From an uncultured Rhodospirillales bacterium (lineage in GTDB: Bacteria > Pseudomonadota > Alphaproteobacteria > RF32 > CAG-239): 64,000 bases of DNA. Under the pieces are notes generated by a model. The model was not told the origin of the DNA. It saw only the letters and a program-made list of their open reading frames with translations, and did no database searches. The position numbers and the translations under genes were made by a program. Positions within the stretch are counted from its first letter, which is position 1. Each line of letters opens with the position of its first letter. The stretch spans positions 21,498 through 85,497 of the forward strand of contig CACWLK010000003.1 in NCBI GenBank assembly GCA_902761715.1. Direction: 5' to 3'. This document shows positions 15,217 through 51,776 of the stretch, one piece after another.

Positions 15217-15244
15217 AATCAAATTTCCGTTACGGAAGTGCTTA

Positions 15245-15839: not shown

Positions 15840-15868
15840 ATTATATTGCATTTTGACAACATAAGCAA
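15840..15868 (-). promoter_or_regulatory. Putative sigma70 promoter for the pilin gene
   Basis: Minus strand TTGCTT - 17 nt - TATAAT, about 38 nt upstream of the pilin ATG. Confidence 0.45.
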
Positions 15869-15901
15869 GCGTTTTTTGTTCTGAAAACCCTTTTGCCGTC
15901 G

Positions 15902-16462: not shown

Positions 16463-16463
16463 G

Positions 16464-17591: not shown

Positions 17592-17606
17592 AAAACTTCT
17601 CCATCA

Positions 17607-19274: not shown

Positions 19275-19287
19275 TTTTTTTCAACGG

Positions 19288-21991: not shown

Positions 21992-22009
21992 TATGGTTTT
22001 TCCTTATGG

Positions 22010-24332: not shown

Positions 24333-24388
24333 AATTTTATACCATCATACAATCTGAAAAAAAATAATCAAGCACGCTCAAAAAGTTA

Positions 24389-27576: not shown

Positions 27577-27867
27577 ATGAGAGAGCCGATACTAAAAGCA
27601 GTTGCCAATCCTCCGAAAATTTTATGGGGTCCCTATCTTCCGGTGTTGCTTAACCTCGGATTACAATTTCCGATGATGTTTGCCGGACTTGGGATGTTTG
27701 AAATCAATCCGCTGTTTTTTGTGGCAACAATAGGTCTTGCTCATACAGGAATTGTTTTGTGGGGAGCTAAGGAACCGCACATTTCCAATATGATACAGGC
27801 TTTTGGAACGACATTTCGCGTAACCAACAATTTATATAAAGAAAAGGGGAATAAGTTTGCACCCTGA
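27577..27867 (+). CDS. virB3: T4SS protein VirB3
   Basis: 96 aa with two TM segments (LPVLLNLGLQFPMMFAGL, LFFVATIGLAHTGIVLW). Overlaps virB4 by 11 nt. Confidence 0.85.
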   Translation: MREPILKAVANPPKILWGPYLPVLLNLGLQFPMMFAGLGMFEINPLFFVATIGLAHTGIVLWGAKEPHISNMIQAFGTTFRVTNNLYKEKGNKFAP

Positions 27868-30289
27868 TTTTGATTTTTTCAGCGTCTTTGTGCAGGGCTT
27901 AAGCAACAAAGAGGTTTTTGTAACAATATTAGGCTTTATTTCGGCCGCAGCTTTTGCCGGTTTGTGGATTACCAAAATCGGACGATCTCTTTTGCCTCAA
28001 CCGAATGAATCTCGGGTTTCTGACTTTTTGCCTTTTAATAAACTTATGCCCGATGGAATGACAATCCGTTGCTACAATGGCTCGTTCTGCCGCGTTTTTC
28101 AAGTTGAGGGGCTCGATTTGGCTTTTGCGACTGAAGAAAAAATAATCTCCATGGCTGAAGCGCGTAAATCATGGATTGATAGTATGTCGGATTTGCAGGT
28201 TACCGCTCGTGTGATTACTCTGCGTGAGCGTATTCCTGCCGACGTTATTGAAAATACTTTTGATAATCAAATTCTTGAAAAAGTTGCATATACATGGCAG
28301 TCAACCTTAAATCGAGTTTATACTAACTCACACTATATAATAGTGTCTGTTCCTGACCGTCCTGATGCCCTCAAAGATTTGAATTATGCTTCCCAATCTC
28401 TGTTGGCAACACTTAGTGAATATGGCGTTCGTGCCATGTTTGAGAGCGAGGACAGCTCCGCTTTGGACAGCCCGTTTCACGTGTTCAGCCGTTTGTGTAG
28501 TCCTATATCTAAGCCTGACCCCAAAGTCGGCAACGCAGAGGGCTCACAACTCAACGAACTGCTTACATCGGATCATATCCACTTTACGGGTGAAAACGGT
28601 CTGATTCGTTTCTTTTCCGGCGACAAAGAAAAATTAGCTATCACAATGGGTATTCGCTCTTCAAGTGATTACATGGATGAGTCAATGATTGTATCTCTGC
28701 TGGCAATTGACTGTGAGTTGACTCTTCTGCATAACATCAAACCTATTTATCGTCCGGCCGCTCGTGGTTTGCTTATTCAACAGCGCAATATGGCACGTAT
28801 GACCAGTTTTTCTCAAGATGTTGTCGATCAATATAGCTATGCCATGAGTGCGATTGAAGACAGTGATGCCAATTATCAAGCTTTGACCCAATACGCAATG
28901 TCTTTGGTTTTGCGTGGCGATAGCAAGGAAGAAATTGATTTTGCCGAAAGTGAAGTTCAAAGAATTTGCCGTCTGTTTGGTGTTACTCCGGTTCGTGAGG
29001 GCTGGGTTGCTCAAGCGACATTCTTTAACCAATTTCCTACTTATGAAATTTATCCGCGGGCATACTTATACTTGTCGCGTGTCGTAACGGCGGCAATTTC
29101 ATTTGATAAACCGGCGGAAGGCTTTAATAAGAGCGACTGGGGCCCGGGAGCAATTACGACCTTCCGCACCACCACCGGTTCGGGATACCGCTTCCAATTC
29201 CATGTCTCTTCAGAAGAAGCTGCCGTTGCGCACTGTTGTATTATCGGACCTACCGGTCAAGGTAAAACAACTTTGCTTACTTTTTTGGCCGGACAGGCAA
29301 TGCGTCACAAAGACCTCAAGGTGTTCTTCTTTGACCGTCACTTGGGTGCGGAAATTTTCACTCGTGCTGTCGGTGGTGCATATATTGGCTTTGACGGCGA
29401 TGAAAAAAATGTGTCTCTTAACCCGTTTGATACCTCTCCGACACCGAACAACCGTGCGTTTTTACGCCGTTGGATGAAATCAATTACCATGGTCGATGAT
29501 GCTCTTTCCGAAAGAGAAATTGCTCGTGCGGTAACTACGGCATTTGATTATCTCCGTCCTGAAGAGCGGGTTATGAGCAACCTTTATAAAAGCTGTTTTT
29601 CTCCGACCGGTAATATGCGCCGTGAGCTTTATCGTTGGGTCAACCCTGATCAATACGGCAAAATTTTTAACGCGACCAATGATAGCCTCGATTTGCATAG
29701 CAAACGCTTTATGGCATTTGACTTTACGCACATTTTTGAGGATGATACTCTGGCTCCGGCGGTCATCAGCTACATCATGCACCGTATTCAGTCCGAAACC
29801 GGAGAAACCGGCGTTCCTTCACTGATTATGATCGATGAGACCGCGCCTATGTTAAAGCACCCGATGTTCCGTGATTACTTTATTATCGGTCTGCAAGAAG
29901 GACGTAAAAAACGTCAGGCTTATCTCTGCGCTTTCCAACAGCCTAATATTATTGACTCTTTGGGCGTTGGTGAGGTTATCCGCGGTCAATGCCAAACAGT
30001 AATCTTTTTCCGCAACCCGCAGGCCCGCCCTGAGGACTATGAAAACTGGAACCTCAATCAACGTGAAATTGACTTTGTTTTCGGTAAATCTTATCGTGAA
30101 TTTCCATATGCCATTTTGCTTTCTCGTCCGGCAACCGGTGAGTCGGTAATTTTGGATGTAAATTTGAGCGGATTAGGCCCATATCTTAAGCTTTACAACT
30201 CCAGCCGTAAGAATGTTTTGTTGGTTGAGGATCTCATAAGACAATATGGCGAAGAAAACTTTGTTACAAAATATTTAAATTTAGCCTGA
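27857..30289 (+). CDS. virB4: T4SS ATPase VirB4
   Basis: 810 aa with Walker A GPTGQGKTT and Walker B SLIMIDE. TTG start is preceded by AAGGGGA. Confidence 0.95.
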   Translation: MHPDFDFFSVFVQGLSNKEVFVTILGFISAAAFAGLWITKIGRSLLPQPNESRVSDFLPFNKLMPDGMTIRCYNGSFCRVFQVEGLDLAFATEEKIISMAEARKSWIDSMSDLQVTARVITLRERIPADVIENTFDNQILEKVAYTWQSTLNRVYTNSHYIIVSVPDRPDALKDLNYASQSLLATLSEYGVRAMFESEDSSALDSPFHVFSRLCSPISKPDPKVGNAEGSQLNELLTSDHIHFTGENGLIRFFSGDKEKLAITMGIRSSSDYMDESMIVSLLAIDCELTLLHNIKPIYRPAARGLLIQQRNMARMTSFSQDVVDQYSYAMSAIEDSDANYQALTQYAMSLVLRGDSKEEIDFAESEVQRICRLFGVTPVREGWVAQATFFNQFPTYEIYPRAYLYLSRVVTAAISFDKPAEGFNKSDWGPGAITTFRTTTGSGYRFQFHVSSEEAAVAHCCIIGPTGQGKTTLLTFLAGQAMRHKDLKVFFFDRHLGAEIFTRAVGGAYIGFDGDEKNVSLNPFDTSPTPNNRAFLRRWMKSITMVDDALSEREIARAVTTAFDYLRPEERVMSNLYKSCFSPTGNMRRELYRWVNPDQYGKIFNATNDSLDLHSKRFMAFDFTHIFEDDTLAPAVISYIMHRIQSETGETGVPSLIMIDETAPMLKHPMFRDYFIIGLQEGRKKRQAYLCAFQQPNIIDSLGVGEVIRGQCQTVIFFRNPQARPEDYENWNLNQREIDFVFGKSYREFPYAILLSRPATGESVILDVNLSGLGPYLKLYNSSRKNVLLVEDLIRQYGEENFVTKYLNLA

Positions 30290-30368: not shown

Positions 30369-31829
30369 ATGAAAAATATTAAGTTTATTACTATGGTTTC
30401 GGCATGTGCAGCGATTATTATGACATCATCACCGGCCAAGGCATTAATTACATTGGACCCCGGTAACATTGCCGGTACAATCGGTATTGTTATTAACGGT
30501 GCAACCGGTATTATGCAAAGTGTTGAAATCATTACCAACGGCAGCTTATTAAACTCGGTAATCGGTGATGCTGCCGGAACATTAAGAAAATTTGCCGATA
30601 CATTCGGTGGAAACGTTCAAAAAGCCTTACAAATGGCACAAGAAGCACAAGCTCGTATTCAAGAAGGTCAAGCTGCTTATAACAAATATAGAAGTGAAAT
30701 TGAGTCTCGTAAAGCCAAATATCAGGCACTTCTTGATCAGCTGAATGTCAACAAAGAAAGCTATTCCGATAATGCGGAAGAAGAAGACGGCGGCTATCCT
30801 GCAGATTATGATTCGCAAGAAGACGCCGATTACGATCCAGATACCACCTCTACTATTGAGGCATCAAAAAATTCACAAAACAGTTCGGACAATTTATCCG
30901 AAAACACCAATTCTGTTCAATCATCAGACACTTCGCTTCCTAGTGTGGTTGATTCTGGTCAGCCATCAAGTCCGGCGCTTCCTAGCGTTATTGAGGCTAA
31001 ACCATCTTCAGAAGTTGCACTTCCAAGTGTGATTAATGCCAAACCGGCAGTAATCAACAATACATCATCAACCGGTCGCCGCCCATTCTCTTTTTCAAAT
31101 GAAATTCCTGTAGAACCGGTTATTGAAGAGCAACCAACTCCTGCTGATAAAGCTGCAGCTGCTGCAGTTGATGCTGTTTCTTCAGAGACAGTCTCCGAAA
31201 CCCTCTCTCCTGATACTCTCAAGAATGAGATTAAGCCTCGTTTTAGAGTTTCTCCTCTAAAACTTGAAGAACCGGCTAAACTTGACAAAGTTTCGGTCAA
31301 CGAGGTCAGCTTTATAAGCCACCAGTCGTTTGCCGACGAGATTAGCGATGTAAAAGGTGTTAATTACGATTCAAAAGGCACATTCGTTACCCCGTTTGCC
31401 AAACGCTGCGGATTGAGTGTAAAAGATCTGGTTGAATATGAAGGCATGAAATCCTGTCTGACCAAAATTGTAGCAGAAAACAATGCTAAAGATCAGGAAG
31501 ATGCCATTAACAGCCAAAAAGACTGTGAGACTATGGTGTTTGAAACCGTTGTGGCTCTGCTTTCTGAGGCTACAAAGGCCAAGTATGAGGCTTCCAACTA
31601 CACAGACACTCTTGATAAGCAAGATGAACTCGGTGCCGAGAGCTCCACCACTCGTGACGATACCGGTGTAATCGGACTTAGTCAGGAAGAAACTCAAAAA
31701 TTGTTAAACCAAATGAATATGCTTGAATCCGGAGCTATTCTTCTTTCTGGGGTACAAAAAATTTGCGCTATGTCAAAGAATGTTTTGGTTGACAGTGAAA
31801 AATCCGAAAGCTCTGATGGAGGCAAATAA
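30369..31829 (+). CDS. Secreted T4SS-operon protein, unknown: Gly-rich amphipathic N-domain, S/P-rich linker, Cys-containing C-domain
   Basis: Signal peptide MKNIKFITMVSACAAIIMTSSPAKA with SD AGGGAGGA. The linker carries three LPSV(V/I) repeats. I recognised no family. Confidence 0.55.
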   Translation: MKNIKFITMVSACAAIIMTSSPAKALITLDPGNIAGTIGIVINGATGIMQSVEIITNGSLLNSVIGDAAGTLRKFADTFGGNVQKALQMAQEAQARIQEGQAAYNKYRSEIESRKAKYQALLDQLNVNKESYSDNAEEEDGGYPADYDSQEDADYDPDTTSTIEASKNSQNSSDNLSENTNSVQSSDTSLPSVVDSGQPSSPALPSVIEAKPSSEVALPSVINAKPAVINNTSSTGRRPFSFSNEIPVEPVIEEQPTPADKAAAAAVDAVSSETVSETLSPDTLKNEIKPRFRVSPLKLEEPAKLDKVSVNEVSFISHQSFADEISDVKGVNYDSKGTFVTPFAKRCGLSVKDLVEYEGMKSCLTKIVAENNAKDQEDAINSQKDCETMVFETVVALLSEATKAKYEASNYTDTLDKQDELGAESSTTRDDTGVIGLSQEETQKLLNQMNMLESGAILLSGVQKICAMSKNVLVDSEKSESSDGGK

Positions 31830-32494
31830 TGAAAAAAATACTGCTGACATTAATGGCGCTTTGCTTTTGGATGTCGGTTATTCCCGATGCCAGAGCTGAC
31901 TTTGAGCTATTGGAAACAGTCCTCAGCGCCCTTGAGAATATTCAAAAGAAAGTTCAGGTTGTTCAAGAAAAATACCAAAAGATTGAAAGCCAACTTAATG
32001 CCCTGCGCCAAGGTCCTTTAGGCAAGTTGACTGCTATCTCGAGCAAACTCAATTTTAAGAATATTTCTGTTCGCACTCTCCCGATAGTATCTGAAAACAT
32101 CGGCAATCTTCGTAATTTGGAAAAAGCTATTCAAAAAGGTACAATGGCCAACCTTGGCAAGAAAAATCAAATAATCCTTTCTGCCGCCAATGAGAAGAAC
32201 AATGCGGACATTATGCGTGAAGACCTGAGCAGATTGTATGCTTACGCCTTTACCTTACGTACCAGCATGGCAAGAGACCGTCAAAATGAGAATGATTCGC
32301 CTTCCATACTTGAAAACAACCGTGCAACCAAGCAAATGCTTAAAAAAGAAACCATGGAAACCGCTCGTCGTTTTACCCGAATTTTGGATATGCAAAGCTC
32401 GCTTAATGAGTTTCAACGTCGTCTGATTGCGGCCAACTTGAGAGTTCCGGAATCTGATGAAGATGACACAACAGAAGAAGGAGATAAGCAATGA
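31829..32494 (+). CDS. Secreted all-helical 221-aa protein (VirB5/TrbJ-like by size and position only)
   Basis: Signal peptide ...VIPDARA|D followed by heptad-rich helices. Stop/start overlap TAATG with the upstream gene and ATGA overlap with the next gene. Confidence 0.45.
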   Translation: MKKILLTLMALCFWMSVIPDARADFELLETVLSALENIQKKVQVVQEKYQKIESQLNALRQGPLGKLTAISSKLNFKNISVRTLPIVSENIGNLRNLEKAIQKGTMANLGKKNQIILSAANEKNNADIMREDLSRLYAYAFTLRTSMARDRQNENDSPSILENNRATKQMLKKETMETARRFTRILDMQSSLNEFQRRLIAANLRVPESDEDDTTEEGDKQ

Positions 32495-33714
32495 GAAAAA
32501 CCAAATCAATATTAATTGCAATTTCCATTGCATTTTCGCTTTTTCCTTCTAAAGGCGAAGCGTTTTTCCTGCTTCCTCCGTTTAAGACGGACGTTGTAAA
32601 CAGTCTGCAAAAGTCTTTTACAACCATTAAAACTAAAGTTGACAAAGCTTATAAAATGGTAATGGAAAGCACCGTAATGCAAACCATTATTCAATATGGT
32701 GAAGGCGCTTTTGAGGCCTATGATTTTGTAAAAAGCGTAAATTTTGGCTCAATCCAAAGTATTTTGGGAGCTGATTACAAGCAAATTTCAGTACTGTCCT
32801 CAAAAATCAAAAAAATAGATGCTCAAAAGAGTGCCGCTAAAGATAAGGCCGCACAAGAGGCCGCGGCTATCGCTCAAGAAGCAGCTGAAAAAGAAAAAGG
32901 CATCAGTAAAAACATCACCAAGTTGTCGCAAGACAGCCTGCTTAATCCTGATCACGCTGTTGCCAACACCGCTAAAATCAGCGCGTTAATCCAACAAAAA
33001 GAGGAAATAATCGCCGAGGCGCAGAACAACACCAACAGCATAAACGATACTTTGAATTCAGCACTACAAGGTTTTAATGATATGAAAGATTCGATACGTG
33101 CCGAATTAACATCCATACTTTCGTCATTTAACCCGCTTCCGAAGAACTACAATTCACTTCAGGATTTGCGTGAAACCGTGCAGATTCTGTCTCCGGACGA
33201 AAAAACCAAAGTTACCAGTAACATTATCTTTGCTTATAAAGAAGTGTACAACTCCTTATATTGGCAGGATATCAATACGGCAATGCAACGTGCAACCGCC
33301 ATTCGAGCCGAACTTGTTGCTGACAACGAAAAAGCTCAGACCATCAATCAAGCCGCCAGTGGTAGCCTTGAAGGTGCAATATCCGCAAACGCCGCCGGAG
33401 CTCTTGAACTGAGAAAAGCCAACATGTTAGCTCTGATTAACTATACAGAGCTGGTATTGCAAAAACTCAAATTAGACATAAGTTATGATTTGTCGATTAG
33501 TGGTTTCCAAAAGATTAATTCTACCACGGCAGTCAATAACTTTAACTTTGATAACTATAAATTTAACCCGAAAGATCCGGTGTATGATGTTGACAGTGTA
33601 ACATTATCACCGGCAGCAGCAGGAGAGGCATTAGACAGCTCCATCGCCGCCGCATCAGAACCGGCAGTTGCCGCCGGGCTGGCTGATATTTCGGCATCTG
33701 CAACAACAGAGTAA
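32491..33714 (+). CDS. Secreted helical 407-aa protein, unknown
   Basis: Signal peptide ...SKGEA|F followed by Ala/Lys/Gln-rich helices. Translationally coupled to its neighbours. Confidence 0.5.
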   Translation: MRKTKSILIAISIAFSLFPSKGEAFFLLPPFKTDVVNSLQKSFTTIKTKVDKAYKMVMESTVMQTIIQYGEGAFEAYDFVKSVNFGSIQSILGADYKQISVLSSKIKKIDAQKSAAKDKAAQEAAAIAQEAAEKEKGISKNITKLSQDSLLNPDHAVANTAKISALIQQKEEIIAEAQNNTNSINDTLNSALQGFNDMKDSIRAELTSILSSFNPLPKNYNSLQDLRETVQILSPDEKTKVTSNIIFAYKEVYNSLYWQDINTAMQRATAIRAELVADNEKAQTINQAASGSLEGAISANAAGALELRKANMLALINYTELVLQKLKLDISYDLSISGFQKINSTTAVNNFNFDNYKFNPKDPVYDVDSVTLSPAAAGEALDSSIAAASEPAVAAGLADISASATTE

Positions 33715-33749
33715 CGTGTCGACATTGACAGTAGTAAAGGAGAAAACAA

Positions 33750-36700
33750 ATGAAAAAGATTTTTAGCCGTATTTTTCTAGCTGTTTGTGTCGTAGCGGGC
33801 GGCCTTCTTATAAGTAAGCCGGCAGATGCACAGCTTTTGTTTGGTATATCTTTTGACGCCAAAGGCGATGTAAAATCGACCATACAGCAGGTTGAACAAT
33901 ATTTGGCCACCGTCCAAGAAGAAGTTGTTGCCAAGGTCAAAGAAGCTTTAACCGCAGTAAAATCAACCGTCGACAAATATAAAGGATCAATTACCAGACT
34001 GGTCAGCAAAATTCCGGGAACCAAAGACTTTGATGTTGCCGGTTCGGTTGACGTATACGATTACGAAGCCGTCAAAACCGCATTTAATGAGCTGTTTTTA
34101 CAATATCCGTCAACAGAGCCACGCATAAAGAAAGCTTATGAGCAAAAAGCCGAGCAGTTCTACTATGATACTTTGGTTGAGGTAAAAACCGCATTGGTTG
34201 AGCTCGAAACTCAGTTGGGTAAATATCGCAAGGAAGTAGAAGCATTTAGTGAAGAAGCCTTGACCTCAGACGGTTCAGGTTCAACTGCTAGCTCCGAAGA
34301 AGAAAACGGCGTTGATTACAACGTTTATATGGCTGCTCGCAAAATGAATGATATCCTGAAGATTACCGAAGAGCTGGTCGCTATGCGTAATCAATACTTT
34401 GCTGCCAGCATGATGCATGGCGGAAGACAGGTTTTGCCGGCTGAAAAGGTAGAGCCTAAAGCAGAACCGTCAGAAAAAACTTCAGAACTGAGCGGCGTCA
34501 GCAAAATGATGTTTGGTCAGTTTATGACTCAGGGTGCTATTCCTGCTCCCGCCGCTCCAAGCGAGGGCGAAACTGAAGAAAAAACGGTTTCACAAAACAA
34601 ATCTTCAGACCGCTTCGTTGTTCCTGCTGCTCCTGCCACTTCAGCTCCGCTCGAGGGTAGTGAAGCCGAACTGGATGCCTTAAAACGTGTTGCTAACACT
34701 CAAGAAATTGTCAATTCTGCACTTGATGTTCACAATATGTTGCAACGCATGCCTGAATATAAGTCAATGTATAAACAATACAGCCTTTATAAGAAACTTC
34801 ACGAAAGGGCAGTCGAGGGTGTAAAAGAGGCAGATGTTTGCGTTACCAGATACCTGGGACGTCGCTATTCCGAGCCGAACAAAGTATGGTTCGGTCAGGC
34901 GACACCGCCTGTTGCCGCCTGCGACTATAATTCTCGTAAAGGTCTCTCACAGTGGGCAATTACCGCATATCAGGCTGCAAATGATGATGCCGGTAACGCA
35001 ATTGATGTAAATTCTTTTGCAAACTACGACATTGACACAGACGGAGACAGTCAAACTTTGGTTGACCCTGATGTTGAGGCTTTGGAAAAGAAAAATGCCG
35101 AAGAGCCTGTCGATGAGTCATATGTAAAACCGAGCCATGATCAAGAATATTCTAACTCGGTTCGTGAGGTTGAATTACTGAACTGGATAATCGGACGCAA
35201 AGCCGCAATGTTGTTGGTAGAAGACCAATATAACAAACAAGTTTATGGCGCCGCCGAACATCCGTTCCCGATTTGGAACGACCAACGCAGTTACTATGAT
35301 CAGTACATCAGTGGTAAATATGAAAGTATCAAAGCATATCTGCGTGAGCTTGACTTTACCAAAGCTGCACTCTCTATCGCTCAAACGCTTAACAGCGGTC
35401 AGGAAGAAAGTGAAGACAAAGACAATACCGCTACAGCTTTAGGCGAACTTGAGAGCGCCATGGCTGAGATGGAGCCTCCGGTCAAAGCAACCAGCAGACT
35501 TCTTGAGGAAAAAACTCAATCGCTTGCCTCCATCCGTCAAAAAGAGGCCGATGAATTGGCTCCTTATTTAAAAACTAAGGATAGCCTGAATGAGAAACTG
35601 GACTCATGGAGCAATGCCATAGTTGAAATTACGGAAGAAATCAATGGTTTGAACCAACAATCTTCGTACAACAAATCACGCGCCGAAAGCGCAAACACTC
35701 AAATCAAACTTATGGACAGCCGTGGTACACCGACAGAGTCTACTCTTTATGTTGAAGCCAAAGAAACCTTTGCCAATGCAACGGAATCTTATGCTGAAAA
35801 CGTAGAAGAACTCGGAGAAAAACGCATTACTCTTAAAAAATATGAGATTGAGCGTGATAAGGTACAAACGGCTCTTGATAAGTTAAATAAGCAAATAGAG
35901 GAAATACAAAGCAGATATCAACATGAAATAATTGCAATTGAAAGCGATTACGATGCTCAAATAATTGCTTTGCAAAAAAATCCCGATATTGCCCCGTTAT
36001 TGTCAAGCATTGCCCAAAGTGCTAATATAACTGACATCGGCGCCCTCGGGTTTATAAGTCAGGCCGACGGCTTGATTAACACCGCTCGTTCTTGTGCAAT
36101 TCAGTTTGTTGAAGATCTCGAAAGTGATTTGTCAGCGATGAAAGCTGATGATGCTCTATATCTGGACAAGAACAACGGCGCTGTCGTTAGCAAACACGCC
36201 GAGATGATTGAAAAACTAAAAGCCCTGCCGGGCAACTGTTTCGAAAAAGAAGTTGCCGCAACAATCGGATCATTAAGCGTAAGCCCTCAAAGCATTATTC
36301 CGCTGCTGCAGGGATTGTTTACAATGCCATTGACTGAAATTTGTACCAATTACACCTGTGATGCCGGGGATACACAATACTTTGTCGGCCTTCCGGCAAA
36401 AGAACGCGACTTTACGGCGCCTCGAGCTGCGCTGGTTACACACTATCCGCCGGTTCGTGATATGGTTCACTTGGATACAACTGACTACAAACATATGGAC
36501 GTCAGCAAAGACGGAAGACTCAATCGTAATGCTTTCCTTGAGTATGGATTGGAACAGCCGTACATTTGGCAGTTGCTCCTTTCTGATAAAGCCTTCATCG
36601 AGAGAGGTGTTGATCTCGAAGCTGTTCTTGAAAAGGGCGGCGAAGGCAAAGCTTTTGCTCGCGGCATACAACTTCCGTGTCGCACCGGCAACTACATGAT

Positions 36701-37595
36701 TGATATGTCCAACAACGGTAAATACTCGGTTGTTGATATGCAGAAAAACGCTTCAGCCGGCAATTTGCAAAGATTCAAAACTTTGTATGAATGCCGAGAT
36801 TTGCGTATTACCGGACAGACCCCCGGCATTGGAAACGTCTTAAATACGTTTATTGTATACGATGCCAATATCGAGAACAAAAAAGATCGCACTACTCTTG
36901 GCAATGCTGCCGGAAGTATCAGTGATCCGGTTACCAGTGAGCTTGGTATGTTCTTGAAGTATAACGACGGAACCCTGTCCATGAACAAACTTCCGTATTA
37001 TGGTTATACCATGTTGATTAAAAAGGAAAAGGATGCCGAAAAGGATGGCAAATATAAAATTAATGCTGATGACAATATTTATCAGCGCTCTATGCTTGCC
37101 GACAACCAAATCGGAGAATTCTTGCACTTTGTCGACAAAGAACTTGACGTCAAGAAAAACCTTGATGAAATCGAAGCCAACTTGGCTAACTTGAAAACAA
37201 GCTTAACAGAGTTGTTTGACAAGATAAACTTTAAGCTGAAAGATGATATCGATTTTGCATCAGAAAGCGACTTTAATTACGTTGTTAAAAAACTTGAAGA
37301 ACAGAAAAATACTCTTATGAGCAAGGTTTCAAGTTCTATGAAGTCAATTAATCATGGTAATGCTACCGTAAATGAACGTTATCAGAGATTAGACAATACC
37401 TATAAGGCTTTGTTGCAAGACAACAAGTATAAAGTCAACCTGACGACCAATACTCAAGCCGGCAGTTCTCTTACCGAAAGCATAAAGACTGCGGAAACAA
37501 ACGAAAAAGTAATTGAAAAATCTCGTAAGGAAGGATATGATTCCATCCAAGAACAGATTGACAATTATGAACGTCCTGTATGTATGCCGTATTAG
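33750..37595 (+). CDS. Large (1281 aa) secreted protein, coiled-coil N-terminal two-thirds plus globular C-terminal region, unknown
   Basis: Signal peptide ...SKPADA|Q with SD AAGGAGAA. Long uninterrupted ORF inside the T4SS operon. I recognised no family motif. Confidence 0.6.
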   Translation: MKKIFSRIFLAVCVVAGGLLISKPADAQLLFGISFDAKGDVKSTIQQVEQYLATVQEEVVAKVKEALTAVKSTVDKYKGSITRLVSKIPGTKDFDVAGSVDVYDYEAVKTAFNELFLQYPSTEPRIKKAYEQKAEQFYYDTLVEVKTALVELETQLGKYRKEVEAFSEEALTSDGSGSTASSEEENGVDYNVYMAARKMNDILKITEELVAMRNQYFAASMMHGGRQVLPAEKVEPKAEPSEKTSELSGVSKMMFGQFMTQGAIPAPAAPSEGETEEKTVSQNKSSDRFVVPAAPATSAPLEGSEAELDALKRVANTQEIVNSALDVHNMLQRMPEYKSMYKQYSLYKKLHERAVEGVKEADVCVTRYLGRRYSEPNKVWFGQATPPVAACDYNSRKGLSQWAITAYQAANDDAGNAIDVNSFANYDIDTDGDSQTLVDPDVEALEKKNAEEPVDESYVKPSHDQEYSNSVREVELLNWIIGRKAAMLLVEDQYNKQVYGAAEHPFPIWNDQRSYYDQYISGKYESIKAYLRELDFTKAALSIAQTLNSGQEESEDKDNTATALGELESAMAEMEPPVKATSRLLEEKTQSLASIRQKEADELAPYLKTKDSLNEKLDSWSNAIVEITEEINGLNQQSSYNKSRAESANTQIKLMDSRGTPTESTLYVEAKETFANATESYAENVEELGEKRITLKKYEIERDKVQTALDKLNKQIEEIQSRYQHEIIAIESDYDAQIIALQKNPDIAPLLSSIAQSANITDIGALGFISQADGLINTARSCAIQFVEDLESDLSAMKADDALYLDKNNGAVVSKHAEMIEKLKALPGNCFEKEVAATIGSLSVSPQSIIPLLQGLFTMPLTEICTNYTCDAGDTQYFVGLPAKERDFTAPRAALVTHYPPVRDMVHLDTTDYKHMDVSKDGRLNRNAFLEYGLEQPYIWQLLLSDKAFIERGVDLEAVLEKGGEGKAFARGIQLPCRTGNYMIDMSNNGKYSVVDMQKNASAGNLQRFKTLYECRDLRITGQTPGIGNVLNTFIVYDANIENKKDRTTLGNAAGSISDPVTSELGMFLKYNDGTLSMNKLPYYGYTMLIKKEKDAEKDGKYKINADDNIYQRSMLADNQIGEFLHFVDKELDVKKNLDEIEANLANLKTSLTELFDKINFKLKDDIDFASESDFNYVVKKLEEQKNTLMSKVSSSMKSINHGNATVNERYQRLDNTYKALLQDNKYKVNLTTNTQAGSSLTESIKTAETNEKVIEKSRKEGYDSIQEQIDNYERPVCMPY

Positions 37596-37608: not shown

Positions 37609-38364
37609 ATGAGTAAATTAGGTAATATACTTGAAAACACTAAAGTAATGGCATTGACCGACAAAAGTGGTAGAATATACCACTTTCTCGGTCAGGCCGA
37701 AAAAGAAAAACACAGTGTTAAAATGTATTATTACCTGTGGCTGTCGCGCATGTTCATCTTTACAGCCGCCATCTCTTTAGCGATTTTTGTTGCCGCCTCA
37801 CTAGCTTTGTTCAAACTGGCTCCGATGGTTACTGTCGAGCCGTTTTTAATCATCAATCAAAGCAGTTCTGATGATATTGCGCGTTACGAGCCGATTGCAC
37901 TAAACATGGCATCGCGCGAGCAGTTTATGGAGACATTCGTCAGACAATACGTTATGTACCGCAATACTGTGCTAGACGATAAACTGGAAATGATGTCGCG
38001 CTGGTATCCCGGGGGCATAATCAACTTTCTGTCCAGCCCTGACGTCTACAATAAATTTTATAAAGACCTTGAAGAGACTGAAAGAAGAAACCAAAAGAGC
38101 CGCTCATCTCAAGAAGTTGAGATCATATCTTCACAACGTATTGGCGGAAAGCGTAGCGCTGTGTGGAAAGTAAACTTTAAGACTTATGAAATCTCAAGTC
38201 GTGAACGCAGTACCAATAAAGGATATCTCGTCCTTAACACAAATTATTGGACCGCCTCAATCACCGCATTTTTTATCCCTGAACGCATATTCATGGGACG
38301 TCGTCTTATGAATCCGCTTGGTTTTACGGTTGTTAAATACGATCAATCCAAAGTTCAATTTTAA
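37609..38364 (+). CDS. virB8: T4SS protein VirB8, copy 1
   Basis: Single N-terminal TM (MFIFTAAISLAIFVAASLALF). VirB8 periplasmic domain pattern is VEPFLI...FVRQYVMYRN...YWTASI...NPLGFTVVKY. Confidence 0.85.
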   Translation: MSKLGNILENTKVMALTDKSGRIYHFLGQAEKEKHSVKMYYYLWLSRMFIFTAAISLAIFVAASLALFKLAPMVTVEPFLIINQSSSDDIARYEPIALNMASREQFMETFVRQYVMYRNTVLDDKLEMMSRWYPGGIINFLSSPDVYNKFYKDLEETERRNQKSRSSQEVEIISSQRIGGKRSAVWKVNFKTYEISSRERSTNKGYLVLNTNYWTASITAFFIPERIFMGRRLMNPLGFTVVKYDQSKVQF

Positions 38365-38453: not shown

Positions 38454-38642
38454 ATGATGAAAAAAGTAATACTTCTCTTCTTCGTCGTATTATTAGCTGG
38501 TTGTGGCCTCTTCGGTTCTTATTATGAACCGGAGCCGGTCGAAATTGGTAAGGCTTCTGATGAACTAAAACTTTCTCCTTGTGCGTGCATGCAGGTTGAG
38601 CTCCCGCATACCCTGCCTGATTGGTTTGTCGAGACAATTTAA
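38454..38642 (+). CDS. virB7: Small lipoprotein, VirB7-like
   Basis: 62 aa with lipobox LLAGC. Located between two virB8 copies, as rvhB7 is in Rickettsiales. Confidence 0.55.
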   Translation: MMKKVILLFFVVLLAGCGLFGSYYEPEPVEIGKASDELKLSPCACMQVELPHTLPDWFVETI

Positions 38643-39398: not shown

Positions 39399-41084
39399 AT
39401 GGATAAAACTATGTTGTCAAAATATGTAAAAATAAGTCTTATCGCTTTGTTTGGAGTTTTCTTCTCAACAAACGCTTTTTCTCAGGCCGCGGTTAACAGC
39501 ATGGATCAAGCGCAAGGCAATGGGCAATATCAACCGATGGATATGACCTATGCCGGTTTCAACTCTTTAGGTATGATGCAAAGCGCATGGCTTGATCCTT
39601 TGCAAAACCTTGGAGAGGGACAAACCAAGCCGGCTTATTCAAAATATTACTGGTCTCCTGATTTGGTTTTGCCCCTGCGTCTGCGTGAGGGGATGATTAC
39701 CATGATTAACTTCCCGGAGTGGGAAATGATTGAGGACATCTATATCGGTGATAACTCTACTTTTGACGGGCAAATTTCCGGTCCTAATACCTTATTGTTG
39801 TATCCCCGCTCAGGTGCCAATGTCGGCGTTGATACCAACGTTATTGTGTTCGGACGCTCCGGCAACCGTTATGTATTTTATGTTCGCAGTGAGGGGGTAA
39901 ATACCGAAAGGCTGACTAATGCAATCGTTGATATTGAAGTAGTCGGCGGTAATAATGGTGTAGGCGGAGCCGGCGCAATGGGAAACGGGGGGTCCGCTTC
40001 CGGAGGAGGACGCATTAATGCAACTTCTTATTACGGCGGAAACGGAAAATCAGTAGATTCGACTTTTACCAAACGCAACCAAAAAAATAATTGGATTGAG
40101 AGTATCCCTCTCGATCCGACTAAATTTCGTTTTGATATTGAAGTTTATGTCCCCAACCCCGATGACGTCGTAATCGCACCGGAAAGAGTTTGGCGTGATG
40201 ACATATTTACTTATATTGATTTAGGTAACAAATCGCTCAATATGACACAGCGTCCGATTGTCAGCCTTATTGTTGAAAGAATGGAAGTTCCTGTCGGTTT
40301 CAGAACCAAGGGGCCTAACAATCGCTTAATTATTGTCGAAGCAATCGGCGACATGGTTTTGCGTAACGGCAAGAGAATTGTATGCCTCAAAATGCGTCGT
40401 TCTGATGATGCCGGCCTTGAAGATGTAAGCTATGCCAAAGATATTACGGATAAAGAATGGGATAGAGGCGACAAAATCCCGTCCGGAGGTCGTGGCACTG
40501 CCGGTGCTGCTTCTTATCCTGATTTCAGCGCCGGAACTGTTAATGGTGCAGCCAACATGCCGACCGGAGAAGTTGATATTAATGTTGATGGTAGCTCAAT
40601 TATTGCTCCGCAATATGGCAACGGTGCCGGCGGAGGCTATGGCAATGGCGCCGGTGGTGCTTATGGTAATGGTGCCGGTGGCGGACAAGGTGGCTATTAT
40701 GGTGCCGGAGGGGATTTTGATTATTCTAAAATGCACAGAATTCAAAATACTCAACAATTTGATCCGGCGGCCAGCAATTTTGCAAACCAGTATCGCTACG
40801 GTTCAGGTTTTAGCGACAGCTCCGGTTCAAATATATCAATTGAGCTTGGTACGGATGCTAATGTCGAAAATCTGGAAAGCTTGTGGGATAATTTATCTGA
40901 TAAACATTCTAAGATTTTGCAAAAATATGATCCGTTCTTCTCGGTTGATGCTCCTGCCGATGGTCAAGGTAAAGAACTGTTCCATTTGCGTGTCGGACCG
41001 GTTAAATCACTCGAAGAAGGTGATGGGGTCTGCAGCAGACTTGGTCGAAACGGTGTATTTTGTAGTGTGGTCAGAACCCAATGA
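39399..41084 (+). CDS. virB9: T4SS outer-membrane core protein VirB9 with Gly-rich linkers and a C-terminal SPOR domain
   Basis: Signal peptide ...NAFSQA. VirB9/CagX N- and C-domains (YYWSPDLVLPLRLREGMITMINFP; FDIEVYVP...IFTYIDLG...IVCLKM). Three YGNGAGG(G/A) repeats. The last 84 aa are SPOR-like (LFHLRVGPVKSLEEGDGVCSRLGRNGVFCSVV). Confidence 0.85.
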   Translation: MDKTMLSKYVKISLIALFGVFFSTNAFSQAAVNSMDQAQGNGQYQPMDMTYAGFNSLGMMQSAWLDPLQNLGEGQTKPAYSKYYWSPDLVLPLRLREGMITMINFPEWEMIEDIYIGDNSTFDGQISGPNTLLLYPRSGANVGVDTNVIVFGRSGNRYVFYVRSEGVNTERLTNAIVDIEVVGGNNGVGGAGAMGNGGSASGGGRINATSYYGGNGKSVDSTFTKRNQKNNWIESIPLDPTKFRFDIEVYVPNPDDVVIAPERVWRDDIFTYIDLGNKSLNMTQRPIVSLIVERMEVPVGFRTKGPNNRLIIVEAIGDMVLRNGKRIVCLKMRRSDDAGLEDVSYAKDITDKEWDRGDKIPSGGRGTAGAASYPDFSAGTVNGAANMPTGEVDINVDGSSIIAPQYGNGAGGGYGNGAGGAYGNGAGGGQGGYYGAGGDFDYSKMHRIQNTQQFDPAASNFANQYRYGSGFSDSSGSNISIELGTDANVENLESLWDNLSDKHSKILQKYDPFFSVDAPADGQGKELFHLRVGPVKSLEEGDGVCSRLGRNGVFCSVVRTQ

Positions 41085-44000
41085 GTAAAGAAGTATTAAC
41101 ACATTCAGAAAGTTATATCAGAAAAACCAACCGCATAATTCTTGCGGTTGGTATAACTTCTTTTGTTATTTTTATACTCGGGTTATATCTTCTTTTTTCA
41201 AGCGGTGACAAAGGTAGTGAATACACTGACCCCTCATTTACCGACAATGATGATCCGCTCCAGGTCGAAACTTCCACGTCAGATGACACCGGCATTGAAT
41301 TTGAGCCGATTGATGACGGAGTGCCCCCCATCACTTCTACCCCTAATCCGGTTCCTTTAGGGCAGGTCGTAATCGGTTCTGATGCCAAAAACGTTTTAAC
41401 CATTGGTACAAACGGCAAAGCTACAGTCAGTATTATATCTGTTCAGTTGGCTGAGCCTGCTTTTGACGGCTTTAGTTTTGAGGACTATTGTACAGGAAAA
41501 CACTTGCGTGGTTCTGAAACCTGCGATATCACCATGAAATGGACCCCGGTTGTTACCGGAAACGTGCAAAATAACTTTATCATCAGCTGGCACGAAAGCA
41601 ATATTGCCAAAAGCAATTCAAAATCCGAAAAAGTTCCTGTGTTTGGCAACGCCGTAACCAAGGAAGACTGCAATTTCTGCGATACTGCCACCGGAGGAAC
41701 ATCGGGCTCCGGTTCACAAGCCACCGGTCGAAAAGGTGAGACCTTATCGAGAACAATCGTTGGTCCGGACGGGTCGGTAATCGGATATGCCGATGACGAA
41801 GGCTATGTTTATGACCAGAAAAATAATGTAATCGGTCGTATTAACGAAAACGGTTTGGCTGTTGACGGTGATGGTAACATCATTGGTGTCGCCAACAACC
41901 GTAAACTGGTGTTTGACCCGAATGGCAACGTTATCGGTTATGTAAATCCTGACGGCTCTGTTGTAGACTTAAATGGCAATGTAATCGGCCGCATGCTTCC
42001 TGATGGTACTGTTGTCGATAATGAGGGCAATGTAATCGGTCATGCGGTTGATATGGGATATGTCTACGATGATAATGGCAATATTATAGGTCGGGTAATG
42101 CCTGACGGTACGGTCGTTGATATGAACGGCAATGTCATTGGTCGTCTTAACGAAAAAGGTGAAGTTGTCGATTCCAATGGCAATGTCATCGGACATGTTA
42201 CCAAAACCGGACGAGTAGCTGTTGATGACGATGGCAATATTCTCGGTGTCGTAATGCCGGATGGCTCAGTTGTTGATGCTAATGGTGATGTAATCGGTAA
42301 TGTTGATAAAGACGGCAATGTTATTGCCAGCCCCAATGCCCCCTCACGCAGTGTTAATCGCCGCCTTGTTCGCAATGCTGACGGACAGGTTGTCGGTTAT
42401 GTTGATGAAAACGGTGCTGTTCGAGATTTTAGTGGTAACACAATCGGCAGAACCCGTCCTGACGGCACAATTGTTGACAATGAAGGTAATGAACTTTCTG
42501 CATCAGGTGCTGTGTTGGCATATAACGAGGATGGCAAAGTAATCGGTTATGTCGATAAAGACGGCAATGTTATCGGCGAAGACGGAAAATCTTTAGGCAC
42601 CGTATCTTCTAACGGAATGATTATCGACAGCGAAGGAAATATTATCGGACGTGCCGCTCCTGATGATGATGATAGCTCGAGAGTTAAGGCGTTTGCTTTT
42701 GATGAAAACGGCAACGTCATCGGCTATGTGGATGATGATGGCGTAGTCCGTGATTTTAACGGCAATGTTATCGGCAAAGTAATGCCTGACGGAACCATTG
42801 TCAGTGGTGAAGGAACTATTGTCGGCAAAGCCTTAAATGGTAAAAAGTTAGCCTATGACAAAGATGGCAAGCTTATCGGTTATGTTGATGATGACGGTAC
42901 GGTTTATGATTTTGCCGGCAACAAAATCGGCAAAATGCTTGAAGATGGTACTATTGTAGATGAAAACGGTAACACCATTGGTCTCGCTGTTCAGCCCAAC
43001 AAACTGGCCTACGACAAAGATGGCAATCTTATCGGTTATGTCGATGAAAACGGCGATGTTTATGACTTTAACGGCAACAAAATCGGTAAAATGCTCGAAG
43101 ACGGCACTATTGTTGACGAAGAAGGCAATGTAATCGGTAGAGCTCCGGAACGCTTGGCCTATGACAAAGATGGCAAGTTGATGGGCTATGTCGACAACAA
43201 CAATGATGTTTATGACTTTGCCGGCAACAAAATCGGCAAAATGCTTGAAGACGGCACCATTGTTGACGAAAACGGTAACACCATCGGTCATGGTGTTTTA
43301 CCGGCAGAATTAGTTTATGACAAAGACGGCAACGTAATCGGTTATGTCGGTGAGGACGGTAATGTCTATGACTTTAACGGCAATAAAATCGGACAAGTTC
43401 TTTCCGATGGCACGGTAATTGATCCTGACAGTAAAATAATCGGCAAAGCTGGTCCGGCAAAGGCGGATGGTTATCGTTTAGCCTATGACCCGAAAGGTCG
43501 GGTTATCGGCTATGTTGAAGATGATGGCACAGTTAAAGATTTTGCCGGCAATGTTATTGGTCGTATGCTCCCTGATGGCACTATTATAGATGCAAACGGC
43601 AATATTATCGGTCGTGCCGGCTCAGCCACTCGTCAGCTGGCCTATGACAAAGATGGCAAGGTTATAGGTTATGTTGATGAAAACGGTAATGTTATCAATT
43701 TTAATGGTGATGCCATCGGTAAGATGATTCCCTCCGGCAAACTTGTTAACAGCAACGGCGACGAAATCGGAACAGTAGGCGGATTTGCAAAAATGTTGTT
43801 GGATAAAGACAATAAAATAACCGGCTACATCGGTCCGGACGGAGAGGTTTTTGATATTGAAGGCAACGCCATCGGCTATATGGATGCTGACGGCAATATT
43901 ACCAGTAATACCCAAACAGTTCTCGGTCGTTTGATTCAGGAGTACATGATCCCTGTCACACCTCAAGGCGAAGTTTTGGGCACAGTCAACAACAATGGAA

Positions 44001-51759: not shown

Positions 51760-51776
51760 TTTTACCTCATATAACA

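What the first reader, a model, noticed from the sequence alone, without database searches (positions are those of the whole stretch)
30369..37595. Four consecutive unknown secreted helical proteins occupy the virB5/virB6 slot between virB4 and virB8
In canonical virB operons, virB5 and virB6 (plus virB7) follow virB4. Here there are 7.2 kb encoding four signal-peptide proteins of 486, 221, 407 and 1281 aa. They are tightly or translationally coupled (TAATG and ATGA overlaps, and a 35-nt gap). All are dominated by amphipathic or coiled-coil helices and none has TM helices. The real VirB6 paralogues are displaced to the opposite strand 19 kb away. Rickettsiales rvh systems are reported to lack VirB5 (established knowledge). 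These genes could therefore be a novel pilus-tip/adhesin set, or extracellular/periplasmic structural parts of the machine.
Basis: partly seen in the sequence, partly recalled or inferred. Interest (0 to 1): 0.7.

Follow-up and report, generated by a model that had tools for sequence, protein, structure and literature searches.

The report
Four divergent VirB5-like genes in tandem
The four "unknown" secreted proteins between virB4 and virB8 are real, always occur with this secretion system in uncultured gut Alphaproteobacteria, and at least three are very divergent copies of VirB5, the protein that caps the secretion stalk and pilus tip; this is an unusual expansion of a known part, not a new kind of machine.

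Summary
Four co-oriented genes (486, 221, 407 and 1281 aa) lie at 30369-37595. Each has a Sec signal peptide and no other hydrophobic segment. The TAATG overlap, ATGA overlap and 35-nt gap are as described, and three VirB6-like genes lie about 19 kb away on the other strand.

The proteins are not orphans. The same gene order recurs in every one of about 50 complete related loci, all from uncultured gut or rumen Alphaproteobacteria.

Pfam, NCBIfam and PDB sequence searches find nothing. That is uninformative, because Agrobacterium VirB5 and TrbJ also miss Pfam's VirB5 model.

Profile-profile comparison links the 221-aa family to bona fide VirB5 (96.6 %, E 5e-10; 91-92 % without signal peptides; reversed control 2 %). 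The 407-aa protein (residues 150-344) and both ends of the 486-aa protein give weaker, collinear matches (E 1e-5 to 7e-4). The N-terminal 230 aa of the 1281-aa protein match only tentatively.

A VirB5 HMM run against 2466 ORFs of the related loci puts these four families in 39 of its top 40 hits.

Foldseek did not retrieve a VirB5 structure, so the fold is unconfirmed.

Best reading: an ancient, fast-evolving VirB5 paralogue set forming the stalk cap or pilus tip. This is a new variant of a known kind.

The parts
30369..31829 (+). Protein A, 486 aa: signal peptide (1-25), VirB5-like N-terminal helix (about 26-82), about 180-aa low-complexity insertion (150-330), VirB5-like C-terminal half (about 358-472). 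It lies directly after virB4, the canonical virB5 position.
   Evidence: ORF and SD. hhalign against a VirB5 profile: N-terminus 61-70 %, E 4e-5 to 8e-5; C-terminus 26-35 %, E 4e-4 to 7e-4; reversed controls E about 0.5. C-terminus against the B family: 63.5 %, E 6.8e-5. The VirB5 HMM hits A orthologues at up to 24 bits. No Pfam or NCBIfam hit.
31829..32494 (+). Protein B, 221 aa: signal peptide (1-23) plus a full-length VirB5-like domain (25-211). The best-supported VirB5 homologue of the four.
   Evidence: hhalign of the 106-sequence family against a 38-sequence VirB5 alignment: 96.6 %, E 5e-10, 218 columns. With signal peptides trimmed: 91-92 %, E 5e-7 to 9e-7; reversed control 2 %. That VirB5 alignment hits TraC 1r8i (itself a member of the alignment) and, independently, TrwJ 7o3v. 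The AF2 model (pLDDT 79.9) has three long helices plus three short ones. Foldseek found nothing.
32491..33714 (+). Protein C, 407 aa: signal peptide (1-24), lineage-specific N-terminal region, VirB5-like domain at about residues 150-344.
   Evidence: hhalign against VirB5: 78-82 %, E 1e-5 to 2e-5, 187-191 collinear columns; reversed control E 0.19. Against the B family: E 1.2e-4 to 7.7e-4.
33750..37595 (+). Protein D, 1281 aa: signal peptide (1-27); N-terminal module of about 230 aa (VirB5-sized, weak VirB5/B similarity); linker; conserved helical region (about 290-560); long coiled coil (about 570-810); conserved Cys-containing region (about 860-1125); C-terminal coiled coil ending in the conserved PVCMPY.
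   Evidence: Alignment A2 with its invariant residues. Only coiled-coil PDB matches, at 570-810. N-module against VirB5: E 0.017-0.1; against B: E 0.005-0.006; collinear over 170-196 columns. The N-module is a separate 230-232-aa gene in L038, L041 and L081. The rest of D shows no VirB5 signal.
27857..30289 (+). VirB4 ATPase, upstream anchor of the slot.
   Evidence: Pfam CagE_TrbE_VirB, E 2.5e-12.
37609..38364 (+). First VirB8 paralogue, downstream anchor of the slot.
   Evidence: Pfam VirB8, E 7.4e-12.
38457..38642 (+). 61-aa VirB7-like lipoprotein (MKKVILLFFVVLLAGC...KLSPCAC) between the two virB8 genes.
   Evidence: Translation with lipobox. Conserved in nearly all related loci. It resembles the [KI]KSP-Cys motif and the position upstream of virB8b described for Rickettsia VirB7 (PMC2653234).
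56921..63697 (-). Three VirB6/TrbL-like paralogues (1010, 800 and 436 aa), the presumed platform for VirB5-type proteins.
   Evidence: Weak Pfam TrbL hits, E 1.7e-3, 8.3e-3 and 9.4e-6. The first also carries Peptidase_M23.

Best explanation
The four genes are an ancient, strongly diverged paralogue set of VirB5. In minimal T4SSs, VirB5 is the Sec-exported protein that forms a pentameric cap on the VirB6 platform at the top of the stalk and is carried to the pilus tip as VirB2 polymerises beneath it. B is a minimal VirB5. A is a VirB5 split by a disordered insertion. C is a VirB5 domain with an N-terminal extension. D is a VirB5-sized N-terminal module fused to about 1050 residues of coiled coil plus a Cys-containing head. 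Shown here: export signals, absence of membrane segments, translational coupling, strict co-occurrence with this T4SS, remote homology of B (strong) and of A and C (moderate) to VirB5, and evolution much faster than the core machine. Inferred: after Sec export the four assemble on the VirB6 paralogues as a mixed cap, or as alternative caps. They would then be displayed at the tip of a pilus built from the three VirB2 paralogues, with D providing a long fibre or adhesin that contacts the target cell. The coupling keeps their ratios fixed.
For: Position and export. Conservation of the A-B-C-D order in all ~50 related loci that retain both virB4 and virB8, drawn from 62 loci (about 60 species-level genomes), and in loci of the most distant B relatives. 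Homology of B: (96.6 %, E 5e-10; 91-92 % without signal peptide; reversed 2 %). The VirB5 alignment is validated against TrwJ (1.5e-11; TraC at 1e-32 is a member of the alignment, so that hit is self-recognition). It comes from PF07996-positive proteins. Homology of A and C. A family-blind test with a VirB5 HMM on 2466 ORFs gave 39 of 40 top hits in these four families, with 25 ORFs >= 10 bits, against 2 (reversed) and 0 (12 shuffles); an earlier smaller profile agreed. [quoted passage not shown] Long B-family members carry their insertion exactly between helix 1 and the C-terminal helices. A-D are 25-40 % identical where VirB4 is 80-90 % and VirB8/9 are 63-79 %, as reported for the surface-exposed TrwJ and TrwL in Bartonella (PMC2883598). 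The role of VirB5 in the stalk and at the tip is from PMC9259494. The nearest cultured relatives of this VirB4 (38 % identity) have a PF07996-type VirB5 plus a further 428-453-aa helical protein, predicted secreted in Microvirga, in the same slot.
Against: No direct HMM-to-sequence hit to Pfam PF07996, NCBIfam or PDB VirB5 chains for any of the four, nor for 100 B-family members. Foldseek with a good B model (pLDDT 80) returned no VirB5 structure and nothing better than E 3.4. The window's own B ranks only 72nd with the first VirB5 HMM, so detection relies on orthologues and profiles. Helical, Q/E/K-rich proteins give inflated weak similarities: the reversed VirB5 profile still places 24 of 40 top hits in these families. 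The evidence for D is weak (E 0.017-0.1), and about 80 % of D has no assigned fold or function. Assembly, stoichiometry and tip localisation are inference only.
Confidence: 0.62

Rival explanations
1. Only B is the system's VirB5. A, C and D are lineage-specific periplasmic or surface accessory proteins (scaffold, length regulator, adhesin) that are not VirB5 homologues. Their weak matches reflect shared helical composition. Functionally they would resemble the CagH/CagI partners of CagL.
For: Matches of A, C and D to VirB5 are 10- to 100,000-fold weaker than B's. Non-iterated family profiles do not cross-hit each other at E <= 0.01. The reversed-profile control shows composition-driven enrichment. 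In Helicobacter pylori, three adjacent genes form a pilus subassembly without all being VirB5-like (PMC3164655).
Against: The alignments of A, C and D to VirB5 are collinear over 110-190 columns in the correct N-to-C order, whereas reversed controls give E 0.2-0.7 and short segments. A matches VirB5 separately at its N-terminus and C-terminus, in the right order. C reaches about 80 % hhalign probability. A-D share no C-terminal motif of the Cag type.
Confidence: 0.25
2. The four are Sec-exported substrates or toxin subunits that assemble in the periplasm and are then expelled by the T4SS, as pertussis toxin is by Ptl. They would not be structural parts.
For: All four have Sec signal peptides and lie inside the T4SS operon. 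D has a large conserved non-helical region with invariant Cys and aromatic residues that could be an effector or binding domain. No VirD4 coupling protein is seen in the window. Ptl also lacks VirB5 (PMC2653234).
Against: Homology of B (and of A and C) to a structural component. The genes sit between virB4 and virB8 with translational coupling, and their order is invariant across deep divergence, which is typical of machine parts. No toxin or enzyme domain was found by Pfam, NCBIfam or PDB.
Confidence: 0.08
3. The similarity to VirB5 is entirely an artefact of coiled-coil composition. All four are a novel, unrelated protein set that replaced VirB5.
For: No direct database hit. Foldseek is negative. 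Low sequence identity in the hhalign alignment (8-13 %).
Against: The B-VirB5 hhalign score of 46-70 compares with 20-21 for reversed profiles. The VirB5 HMM gives 25 ORFs >= 10 bits, against 0-2 in 13 controls. The control showing that Agrobacterium VirB5 and TrbJ also fail Pfam removes the force of the negative searches.
Confidence: 0.05

Closest known systems
VirB5 / TraC / TrwJ minor pilin and stalk-cap family (Pfam PF07996; structures 1R8I and 7O3V)
   Same: Sec signal peptide, soluble helical protein of about 220 aa (B), and a gene downstream of virB4. Profile-profile homology covers the whole length for B and a domain for A and C. The layout of three long helices plus short helices agrees.
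   Different: Four paralogues with different architectures instead of one gene. They are too divergent for Pfam or NCBIfam. A carries a 180-aa disordered insertion, C an N-terminal extension, and D a 1050-aa coiled-coil/globular extension. The fold is not confirmed by Foldseek.
Bartonella Trw T4SS, with tandem amplification of trwJ (VirB5) and trwL (VirB2)
   Same: Several VirB5-type and several VirB2-type genes in one alphaproteobacterial T4SS. These components diverge much faster than the core, consistent with variant surface or tip structures (PMC2883598).
   Different: In Trw, trwJ is co-amplified with trwI and trwH as recent, similar-sized copies whose number varies between species. Here the four are ancient, architecturally distinct, fixed in order across the whole lineage, and not co-amplified with VirB6 or VirB7.
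Helicobacter pylori CagH-CagI-CagL module
   Same: Adjacent genes encoding a VirB5-like protein plus partners, all needed for pilus formation. This is a functional analogy for a multi-protein tip or adhesin subassembly (PMC3164655).
   Different: The Cag proteins share a C-terminal hexapeptide; A-D share no C-terminal motif. No sequence relationship was tested or found.
Rickettsiales vir homolog (rvh) T4SS
   Same: Several VirB2 genes, two VirB8 genes flanking a VirB7-like lipoprotein with a KxSP-Cys motif, several enlarged VirB6 paralogues encoded apart, and a chromosomal location (PMC2653234).
   Different: rvh is reported to lack VirB5; this system has up to four VirB5-like genes where rvh has its VirB6 array. 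The hosts are uncultured gut or rumen Alphaproteobacteria labelled Rhodospirillales or 'Azospirillum sp.', not Rickettsiales. The phylogenetic relationship was not tested.
Conjugative T4SS of Microvirga pMVF16-3 and an Erythrobacter aureus plasmid (closest VirB4 in PLSDB, 38 % identity)
   Same: VirB4 is followed by a VirB5 (251-273 aa) and a second, helical protein of 428-453 aa (a signal peptide is evident in the Microvirga copy only), then a VirB7 lipoprotein and VirB8. The Erythrobacter 453-aa protein begins 'DPGKIAGTV', like mature A ('LDPGNIAGTI').
   Different: Those are plasmid systems with a relaxase and VirD4, two rather than four genes in the slot, no giant D, and no duplicated VirB8.

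Membership tests
VirB5/TraC/TrwJ (PF07996) | Sec signal peptide; soluble periplasmic or extracellular protein without membrane segments | tested here: met
   Signal peptides were read from the sequences. There are no hydrophobic windows outside them. The ARA|D cleavage motif is invariant in the B family.
VirB5/TraC/TrwJ (PF07996) | Gene in the T4SS operon downstream of virB4 and upstream of virB6/virB7/virB8 | tested here: met
   VirB4-A-B-C-D-VirB8 in the window and in about 50 related loci.
VirB5/TraC/TrwJ (PF07996) | Direct match to the curated family model (Pfam PF07996 or NCBIfam VirB5/TrbJ) | tested here: not met
   There is no hit for A-D or for 100 B-family members. The control weakens this test: Agrobacterium VirB5 and TrbJ also give no PF07996 hit at E <= 0.1.
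VirB5/TraC/TrwJ (PF07996) | Sequence homology to bona fide VirB5 by profile-profile comparison | tested here: met
   B: 96.6 %, E 5e-10; 91-92 % without signal peptide. C: about 80 %, E 1e-5. A: N-terminus 61-70 %, C-terminus 26-35 %. D N-module: inconclusive, E 0.017-0.1.
VirB5/TraC/TrwJ (PF07996) | Fold: three-helix bundle with a globular appendage | tested here: inconclusive
   B's AF2 model (pLDDT 79.9) has helices 27-61, 114-153 and 164-202 plus short helices 68-105. Foldseek against PDB gave no hit better than E 3.4 and no VirB5 entry.
VirB5/TraC/TrwJ (PF07996) | Pentamer on the VirB6 platform; localisation at the pilus tip | not testable with these tools
   This needs cryo-EM or cryo-ET, immuno-EM or multimer modelling. 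The role is taken from PMC9259494.
Rickettsiales rvh T4SS | Duplicated VirB8 flanking VirB7, several VirB2 genes, and several enlarged VirB6 genes encoded separately | tested here: met
   The VirB7 position and motif were compared with PMC2653234.
Rickettsiales rvh T4SS | Absence of virB5 | tested here: not met
   At least B is a VirB5 homologue, and probably A and C as well.
Rickettsiales rvh T4SS | Phylogenetic grouping of core components with Rickettsiales homologues | not tested
The closest VirB4 in PLSDB is from a Microvirga plasmid, at 38 % identity.
Cag CagH/CagI/CagL module | Shared C-terminal hexapeptide motif | tested here: not met
   The C-termini are ...SSDGGK...EEGDKQ...SATTE and ...PVCMPY.
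Bartonella Trw-type amplification | Recent tandem copies of trwJ co-amplified with trwI and trwH, with copy number varying between species | tested here: not met
   The paralogues are barely recognisable to one another. Their order is fixed across the lineage and no VirB6 or VirB7 is interleaved.

The most novel reading that the evidence does not exclude
A, B, C and D together form a heteromeric cap on the stalk and pilus. The 1281-aa D contributes a roughly 30-nm coiled-coil fibre with a Cys-stabilised head that recognises a specific partner cell (host epithelium, protist or another gut bacterium). This would make it the first T4SS with a built-in, modular tip fibre. As a corollary, VirB5-like proteins this divergent may also be hiding in the 'VirB5-less' Rickettsiales rvh systems, and could be found with the profiles built here.
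Probability: 0.2. Interest if true: 0.8.

Novelty: new variant of a known kind. Interest (0 to 1): 0.55.

Why it matters
VirB5 is the least conserved essential part of minimal type IV secretion systems. It is also the part that touches the target cell. Here standard annotation leaves a 7.2-kb block of 'hypothetical proteins' in a secretion system that is conserved across a whole lineage of uncultured human and animal gut Alphaproteobacteria. That block can be read as a four-fold, architecturally diversified VirB5 set.

This gives a concrete handle on what these uncultured gut bacteria attach to or inject into. It also provides a natural case of VirB5 diversification, including a giant fusion, for understanding how the stalk cap and pilus tip are built.

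The control result matters too. Even Agrobacterium VirB5 and TrbJ escape the Pfam model. Claims that a T4SS 'lacks VirB5', as made for Rickettsiales rvh and Ptl, should therefore be re-examined with profile-profile methods.

Tried and rejected
1. Pfam and NCBIfam scans of A-D found only noise. Pfam scans of 22 and 100 B-family members found no VirB5.

2. PDB sequence and profile searches gave nothing useful. D alone found nothing. The B profiles found only designed coiled coils. The D profile found only coiled-coil proteins at 570-810.

3. The first AF2 model of B, from 22 sequences, had pLDDT 54, so its Foldseek result is meaningless. The second model, from 106 sequences, had pLDDT 80, and Foldseek was still negative.

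4. An iterated HMM search within the loci produced cross-hits between the A, B and C families. I do not rely on these because of possible profile drift; non-iterated profiles gave none.

5. The first hhalign runs, against a 7-sequence VirB5 alignment, were collinear but not significant. They became significant only with the 38-40-sequence VirB5 profile.

6. I tested whether D's remaining 1040 residues hold more VirB5-like repeats. They do not.

7. tblastn of the Microvirga VirB5 against plasmids found a single relative.

8. Cluster look-up of distant B relatives returned no names, and several of them lie on contigs too short to show context.

9. A literature search for this system in gut Alphaproteobacteria found nothing specific.

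10. The effector/toxin reading and the Cag-type shared C-terminal motif were considered and found unsupported.

Full report
**What is in the window**

The + strand from 26245 to 51075 encodes a type IV secretion system. It comprises, in order:
- three VirB2/TrbC pilins, VirB3 and VirB4 (27857-30289);
- four unannotatable ORFs;
- VirB8, a small ORF and a second VirB8;
- VirB9 with a C-terminal SPOR domain;
- a 1568-aa protein made of beta-flower repeats;
- a 1434-aa VirB10 with a beta-flower N-terminal extension;
- VirB11.

Upstream, on the minus strand, is a type IVb pilus locus: PilS/bundlin pilins, T2SSF, T2SSE, PilO, a PilP-like protein, a secretin and TcpQ. Downstream, on the minus strand, are four ORFs without hits, an HTH regulator and three VirB6/TrbL-like ORFs at 56921-63697. 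The left flank holds housekeeping genes (ribosomal protein S1, cytidylate kinase, RsmE, a DnaJ-like protein), so the locus is chromosomal. No relaxase or VirD4 lies in the window.

**Checking the observation**

The four ORFs are A (30369-31829, 486 aa), B (31829-32494, 221 aa), C (32491-33714, 407 aa) and D (33750-37595, 1281 aa). A public gene call on an identical contig gives the same products.

The junctions read AAATAATGAAA (TAATG overlap), CAATGAGA (ATGA overlap), and a 35-nt spacer with AAGGAG before D. There are 13 nt between D and virB8. Each protein starts with a typical signal peptide. None has another hydrophobic segment.

A has a ~180-residue low-complexity S/P/E/D/V-rich middle. 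D has a conserved Cys-containing region that is not coiled coil.

**Distribution**

B has 44 close relatives, all hypothetical. Those that carry a name are from 'Rhodospirillales bacterium' or 'Alphaproteobacteria bacterium' MAGs. D has 24 clusters, likewise unnamed.

A scan of one genome per species with the D alignment returned 62 loci. Nearly all are labelled as uncultured gut, rumen or faecal Alphaproteobacteria: 'Azospirillum sp.', Rhodospirillales, Candidatus Scatocola. Three bins labelled Bacteroidaceae or Ruminococcus gnavus (L006, L057 and L044) are probably mis-binned.

I called ORFs in all loci and labelled them with the window's proteins. Every locus that retains both ends has the same order: VirB2 (usually three)-VirB3-VirB4-[A-B-C-D]-VirB8-lipoprotein-VirB8-VirB9-giant beta-flower protein. 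Some clades have one extra gene before A.

An exhaustive HMM search with the B profile over 1.84 billion representative proteins found 120 relatives. The two distant ones that lie on long contigs sit in the same T4SS context.

**Identity: the negative results and a control**

Pfam and NCBIfam give nothing for A-D. Pfam also gives nothing for 22 or 100 B-family members. PDB sequence and profile searches give only coiled-coil noise.

I fetched bona fide VirB5 genes from plasmids to calibrate these negatives. Agrobacterium VirB5 and TrbJ themselves give no PF07996 hit at E <= 0.1, whereas IncN TraC, IncX3, Xanthomonas, Rhizorhabdus, Sinorhizobium and Erythrobacter VirB5 do. A Pfam-negative result is therefore uninformative for this family.

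**Identity: the positive results**

The closest VirB4 in PLSDB (38 % identity; all others listed are at or below about 30 %) is on a Microvirga plasmid. An Erythrobacter plasmid carries a related system. In both, VirB4 is followed by a VirB5 of 251-273 aa and then a 428-453-aa helical hypothetical protein, with a signal peptide evident in the Microvirga copy. The Erythrobacter VirB5 hits PF07996 at 6.8e-7, and the Microvirga one matches it at 2e-7.

I collected 35 relatives of these two VirB5 proteins; several are PF07996-positive and one is named VirB5. Together with five other plasmid VirB5s they form alignment A6. A6 recognises TrwJ (7O3V) at 1.5e-11; its 1e-32 hit on TraC (1R8I) is self-recognition, because IncN TraC is a member of A6.

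Profile-profile comparison gave the following results.

| Query | Target | Probability | E-value | Columns or residues | Reversed control |
|---|---|---|---|---|---|
| B family (A4, 106 seqs), signal peptide included | VirB5 (A6) | 96.6 % | 5e-10 | 218 columns, end to end | not run |
| B family, signal peptide trimmed | VirB5 | 91-92 % | 5e-7 to 9e-7 | 192-193 columns | 2 %, E 0.03 |
| C | VirB5 | 78-82 % | 1e-5 to 2e-5 | residues 150-344 | E 0.19 |
| A, N-terminus | VirB5 N-terminus | 61-70 % | 4e-5 to 8e-5 | residues 26-82 | E about 0.5 |
| A, C-terminus | VirB5 C-terminal half | 26-35 % | 4e-4 to 7e-4 | residues 358-472 | E about 0.5 |
| A, C-terminus | B family | 63.5 % | 6.8e-5 | 135 columns | E 0.67 |
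| D, N-terminal ~230 residues | VirB5 | 0.6-2.7 % | 0.017-0.1 | 169-186 columns, collinear | E about 0.5 |
| D, N-terminal ~230 residues | B family | 6-7 % | 0.005-0.006 | 187-196 columns, collinear | E 0.14 |

The rest of D shows no VirB5 signal.

A test that does not presuppose families used a VirB5 HMM against all 2466 + strand ORFs of the related loci. It put A, B, C or D-N members in 39 of the top 40 places. The best score was 24 bits (E 5e-6), and 25 ORFs scored >= 10 bits. The reversed profile gave 2 such ORFs, and 12 column-shuffled profiles gave none. A smaller 7-sequence profile had already behaved the same way.

**Structure**

With 106 sequences, AF2 gives B a pLDDT of 79.9. The model has three long helices (27-61, 114-153, 164-202) and three short helices between the first and second. 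This agrees with the published description of TraC as three bundled helices plus a globular appendage (PMC2653234).

Long B-family members carry their extra residues exactly in the appendage position. However, Foldseek against PDB returned no VirB5 entry and nothing below E 3.4. The fold test is therefore inconclusive.

**Further supporting anatomy**

- In three loci (L038, L041, L081), D's N-terminal module is a separate 230-232-aa gene followed by a 1217-1221-aa gene. D is therefore a fusion of a VirB5-sized unit with a large extension.
- A-D are the fastest-evolving genes of the locus. In L011 they are 29-38 % identical to the window, against 87 % for VirB4, 63-76 % for VirB8 and VirB9, and 51-70 % for the VirB2 paralogues. 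The same pattern is reported for the surface-exposed TrwJ and TrwL of Bartonella (PMC2883598).

**Mechanism**

I infer the following. The four proteins are exported by Sec and dock on the VirB6 paralogues. They form a mixed cap or alternative caps, which are lifted to the tip of a pilus made of the three VirB2 paralogues. D's 200-residue coiled coil and Cys-containing head would serve as an extended adhesin.

Export, coupling, co-occurrence and homology are shown. Assembly, stoichiometry and localisation are inference.

**Comparison with known systems**

The set is best filed as a new variant of the VirB5 family. It works like the Bartonella Trw amplification and the Cag CagH/I/L module, but it meets the defining features of neither: there are no recent co-amplified copies and no shared C-terminal motif.

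The machine's organisation resembles Rickettsiales rvh in four respects: several VirB2 genes; VirB8-VirB7-VirB8; a KxSP-Cys motif in VirB7; and displaced, enlarged VirB6 paralogues. It differs in having VirB5-like genes. Its phylogenetic placement was not tested.

**Verdict**

The block is an ordinary component in an unusual, expanded and highly diverged form. About 1000 residues of D remain unexplained.

Noticed in passing
window 38457-38642 (+): A 61-aa ORF between the two virB8 genes encodes a lipoprotein (MKKVILLFFVVLLAGC...) with a 'KLSPCAC' motif. It is conserved in nearly all related loci. It resembles the VirB7 position upstream of virB8b and the [KI]KSP-Cys motif described for Rickettsia and ComB7. 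The Microvirga plasmid homologue reads 'KKSPCAC'.
   Followed up: partly
window 41081-45787 and 45790-50094 (+): A 1568-aa protein built of beta-flower (PF21784/PF21785), DUF3659 and RHS-like repeats lies between virB9 and virB10. VirB10 itself carries a ~1100-aa N-terminal extension of the same repeats. Both are conserved across the related loci. Giant repeat proteins fused to or adjacent to VirB10 are unusual.
   Followed up: partly
window 56921-59953 (-): The largest VirB6/TrbL-like paralogue (1010 aa) has an N-terminal Peptidase_M23 domain (E 1e-11). No VirB1 lytic transglycosylase is seen in the window, so this peptidoglycan hydrolase fusion might take that role.
   Followed up: no
window 12474-25951 (-) and loci L002, L003, L081, L082: A complete type IVb pilus locus (PilS/bundlin pilins, T2SSF, T2SSE, PilO, PilP-like, secretin, TcpQ) abuts the T4SS, and the adjacency is conserved. 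In L002 and L003 a PilS/bundlin pilin gene even sits between virB2 and virB3. This recalls the thin pilus that accompanies the IncI conjugation system (from my own knowledge, not tested).
   Followed up: partly
loci L029, L030, L032, L034, L039, L040 (VirB2c orthologues): The third VirB2 paralogue is 148 aa in the window. In other species of the lineage it grows to 640-940 aa (for example 944 aa in L032). That is a pilin-like N-terminus fused to a very large C-terminal region.
   Followed up: no
window 51106-55745 (-): Four consecutive ORFs (223, 434, 179 and 695 aa) between virB11 and the HTH regulator/VirB6 cluster have no Pfam hit at E <= 0.01. They could be further T4SS parts or substrates.
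   Followed up: no
L069:5137-5799 and L070:4972-5760: The archetypal Agrobacterium VirB5 and TrbJ proteins do not match Pfam PF07996 at E <= 0.1. Absence of that domain therefore cannot be used to call a T4SS 'VirB5-less'.
   Followed up: yes
L073:6802-8163 and L068:19959-21245: The Erythrobacter and Microvirga plasmids encode a second 428-453-aa helical protein after their VirB5; a signal peptide is evident in the Microvirga copy. The Erythrobacter one starts 'MADPGKIAGTV', close to mature A's 'LDPGNIAGTI', and its annotated start may be too far downstream. These may be plasmid counterparts of A.
   Followed up: partly
window 39399-41084 (+): VirB9/CagX carries a C-terminal SPOR (peptidoglycan-binding) domain (E 2.8e-5).
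   Followed up: no
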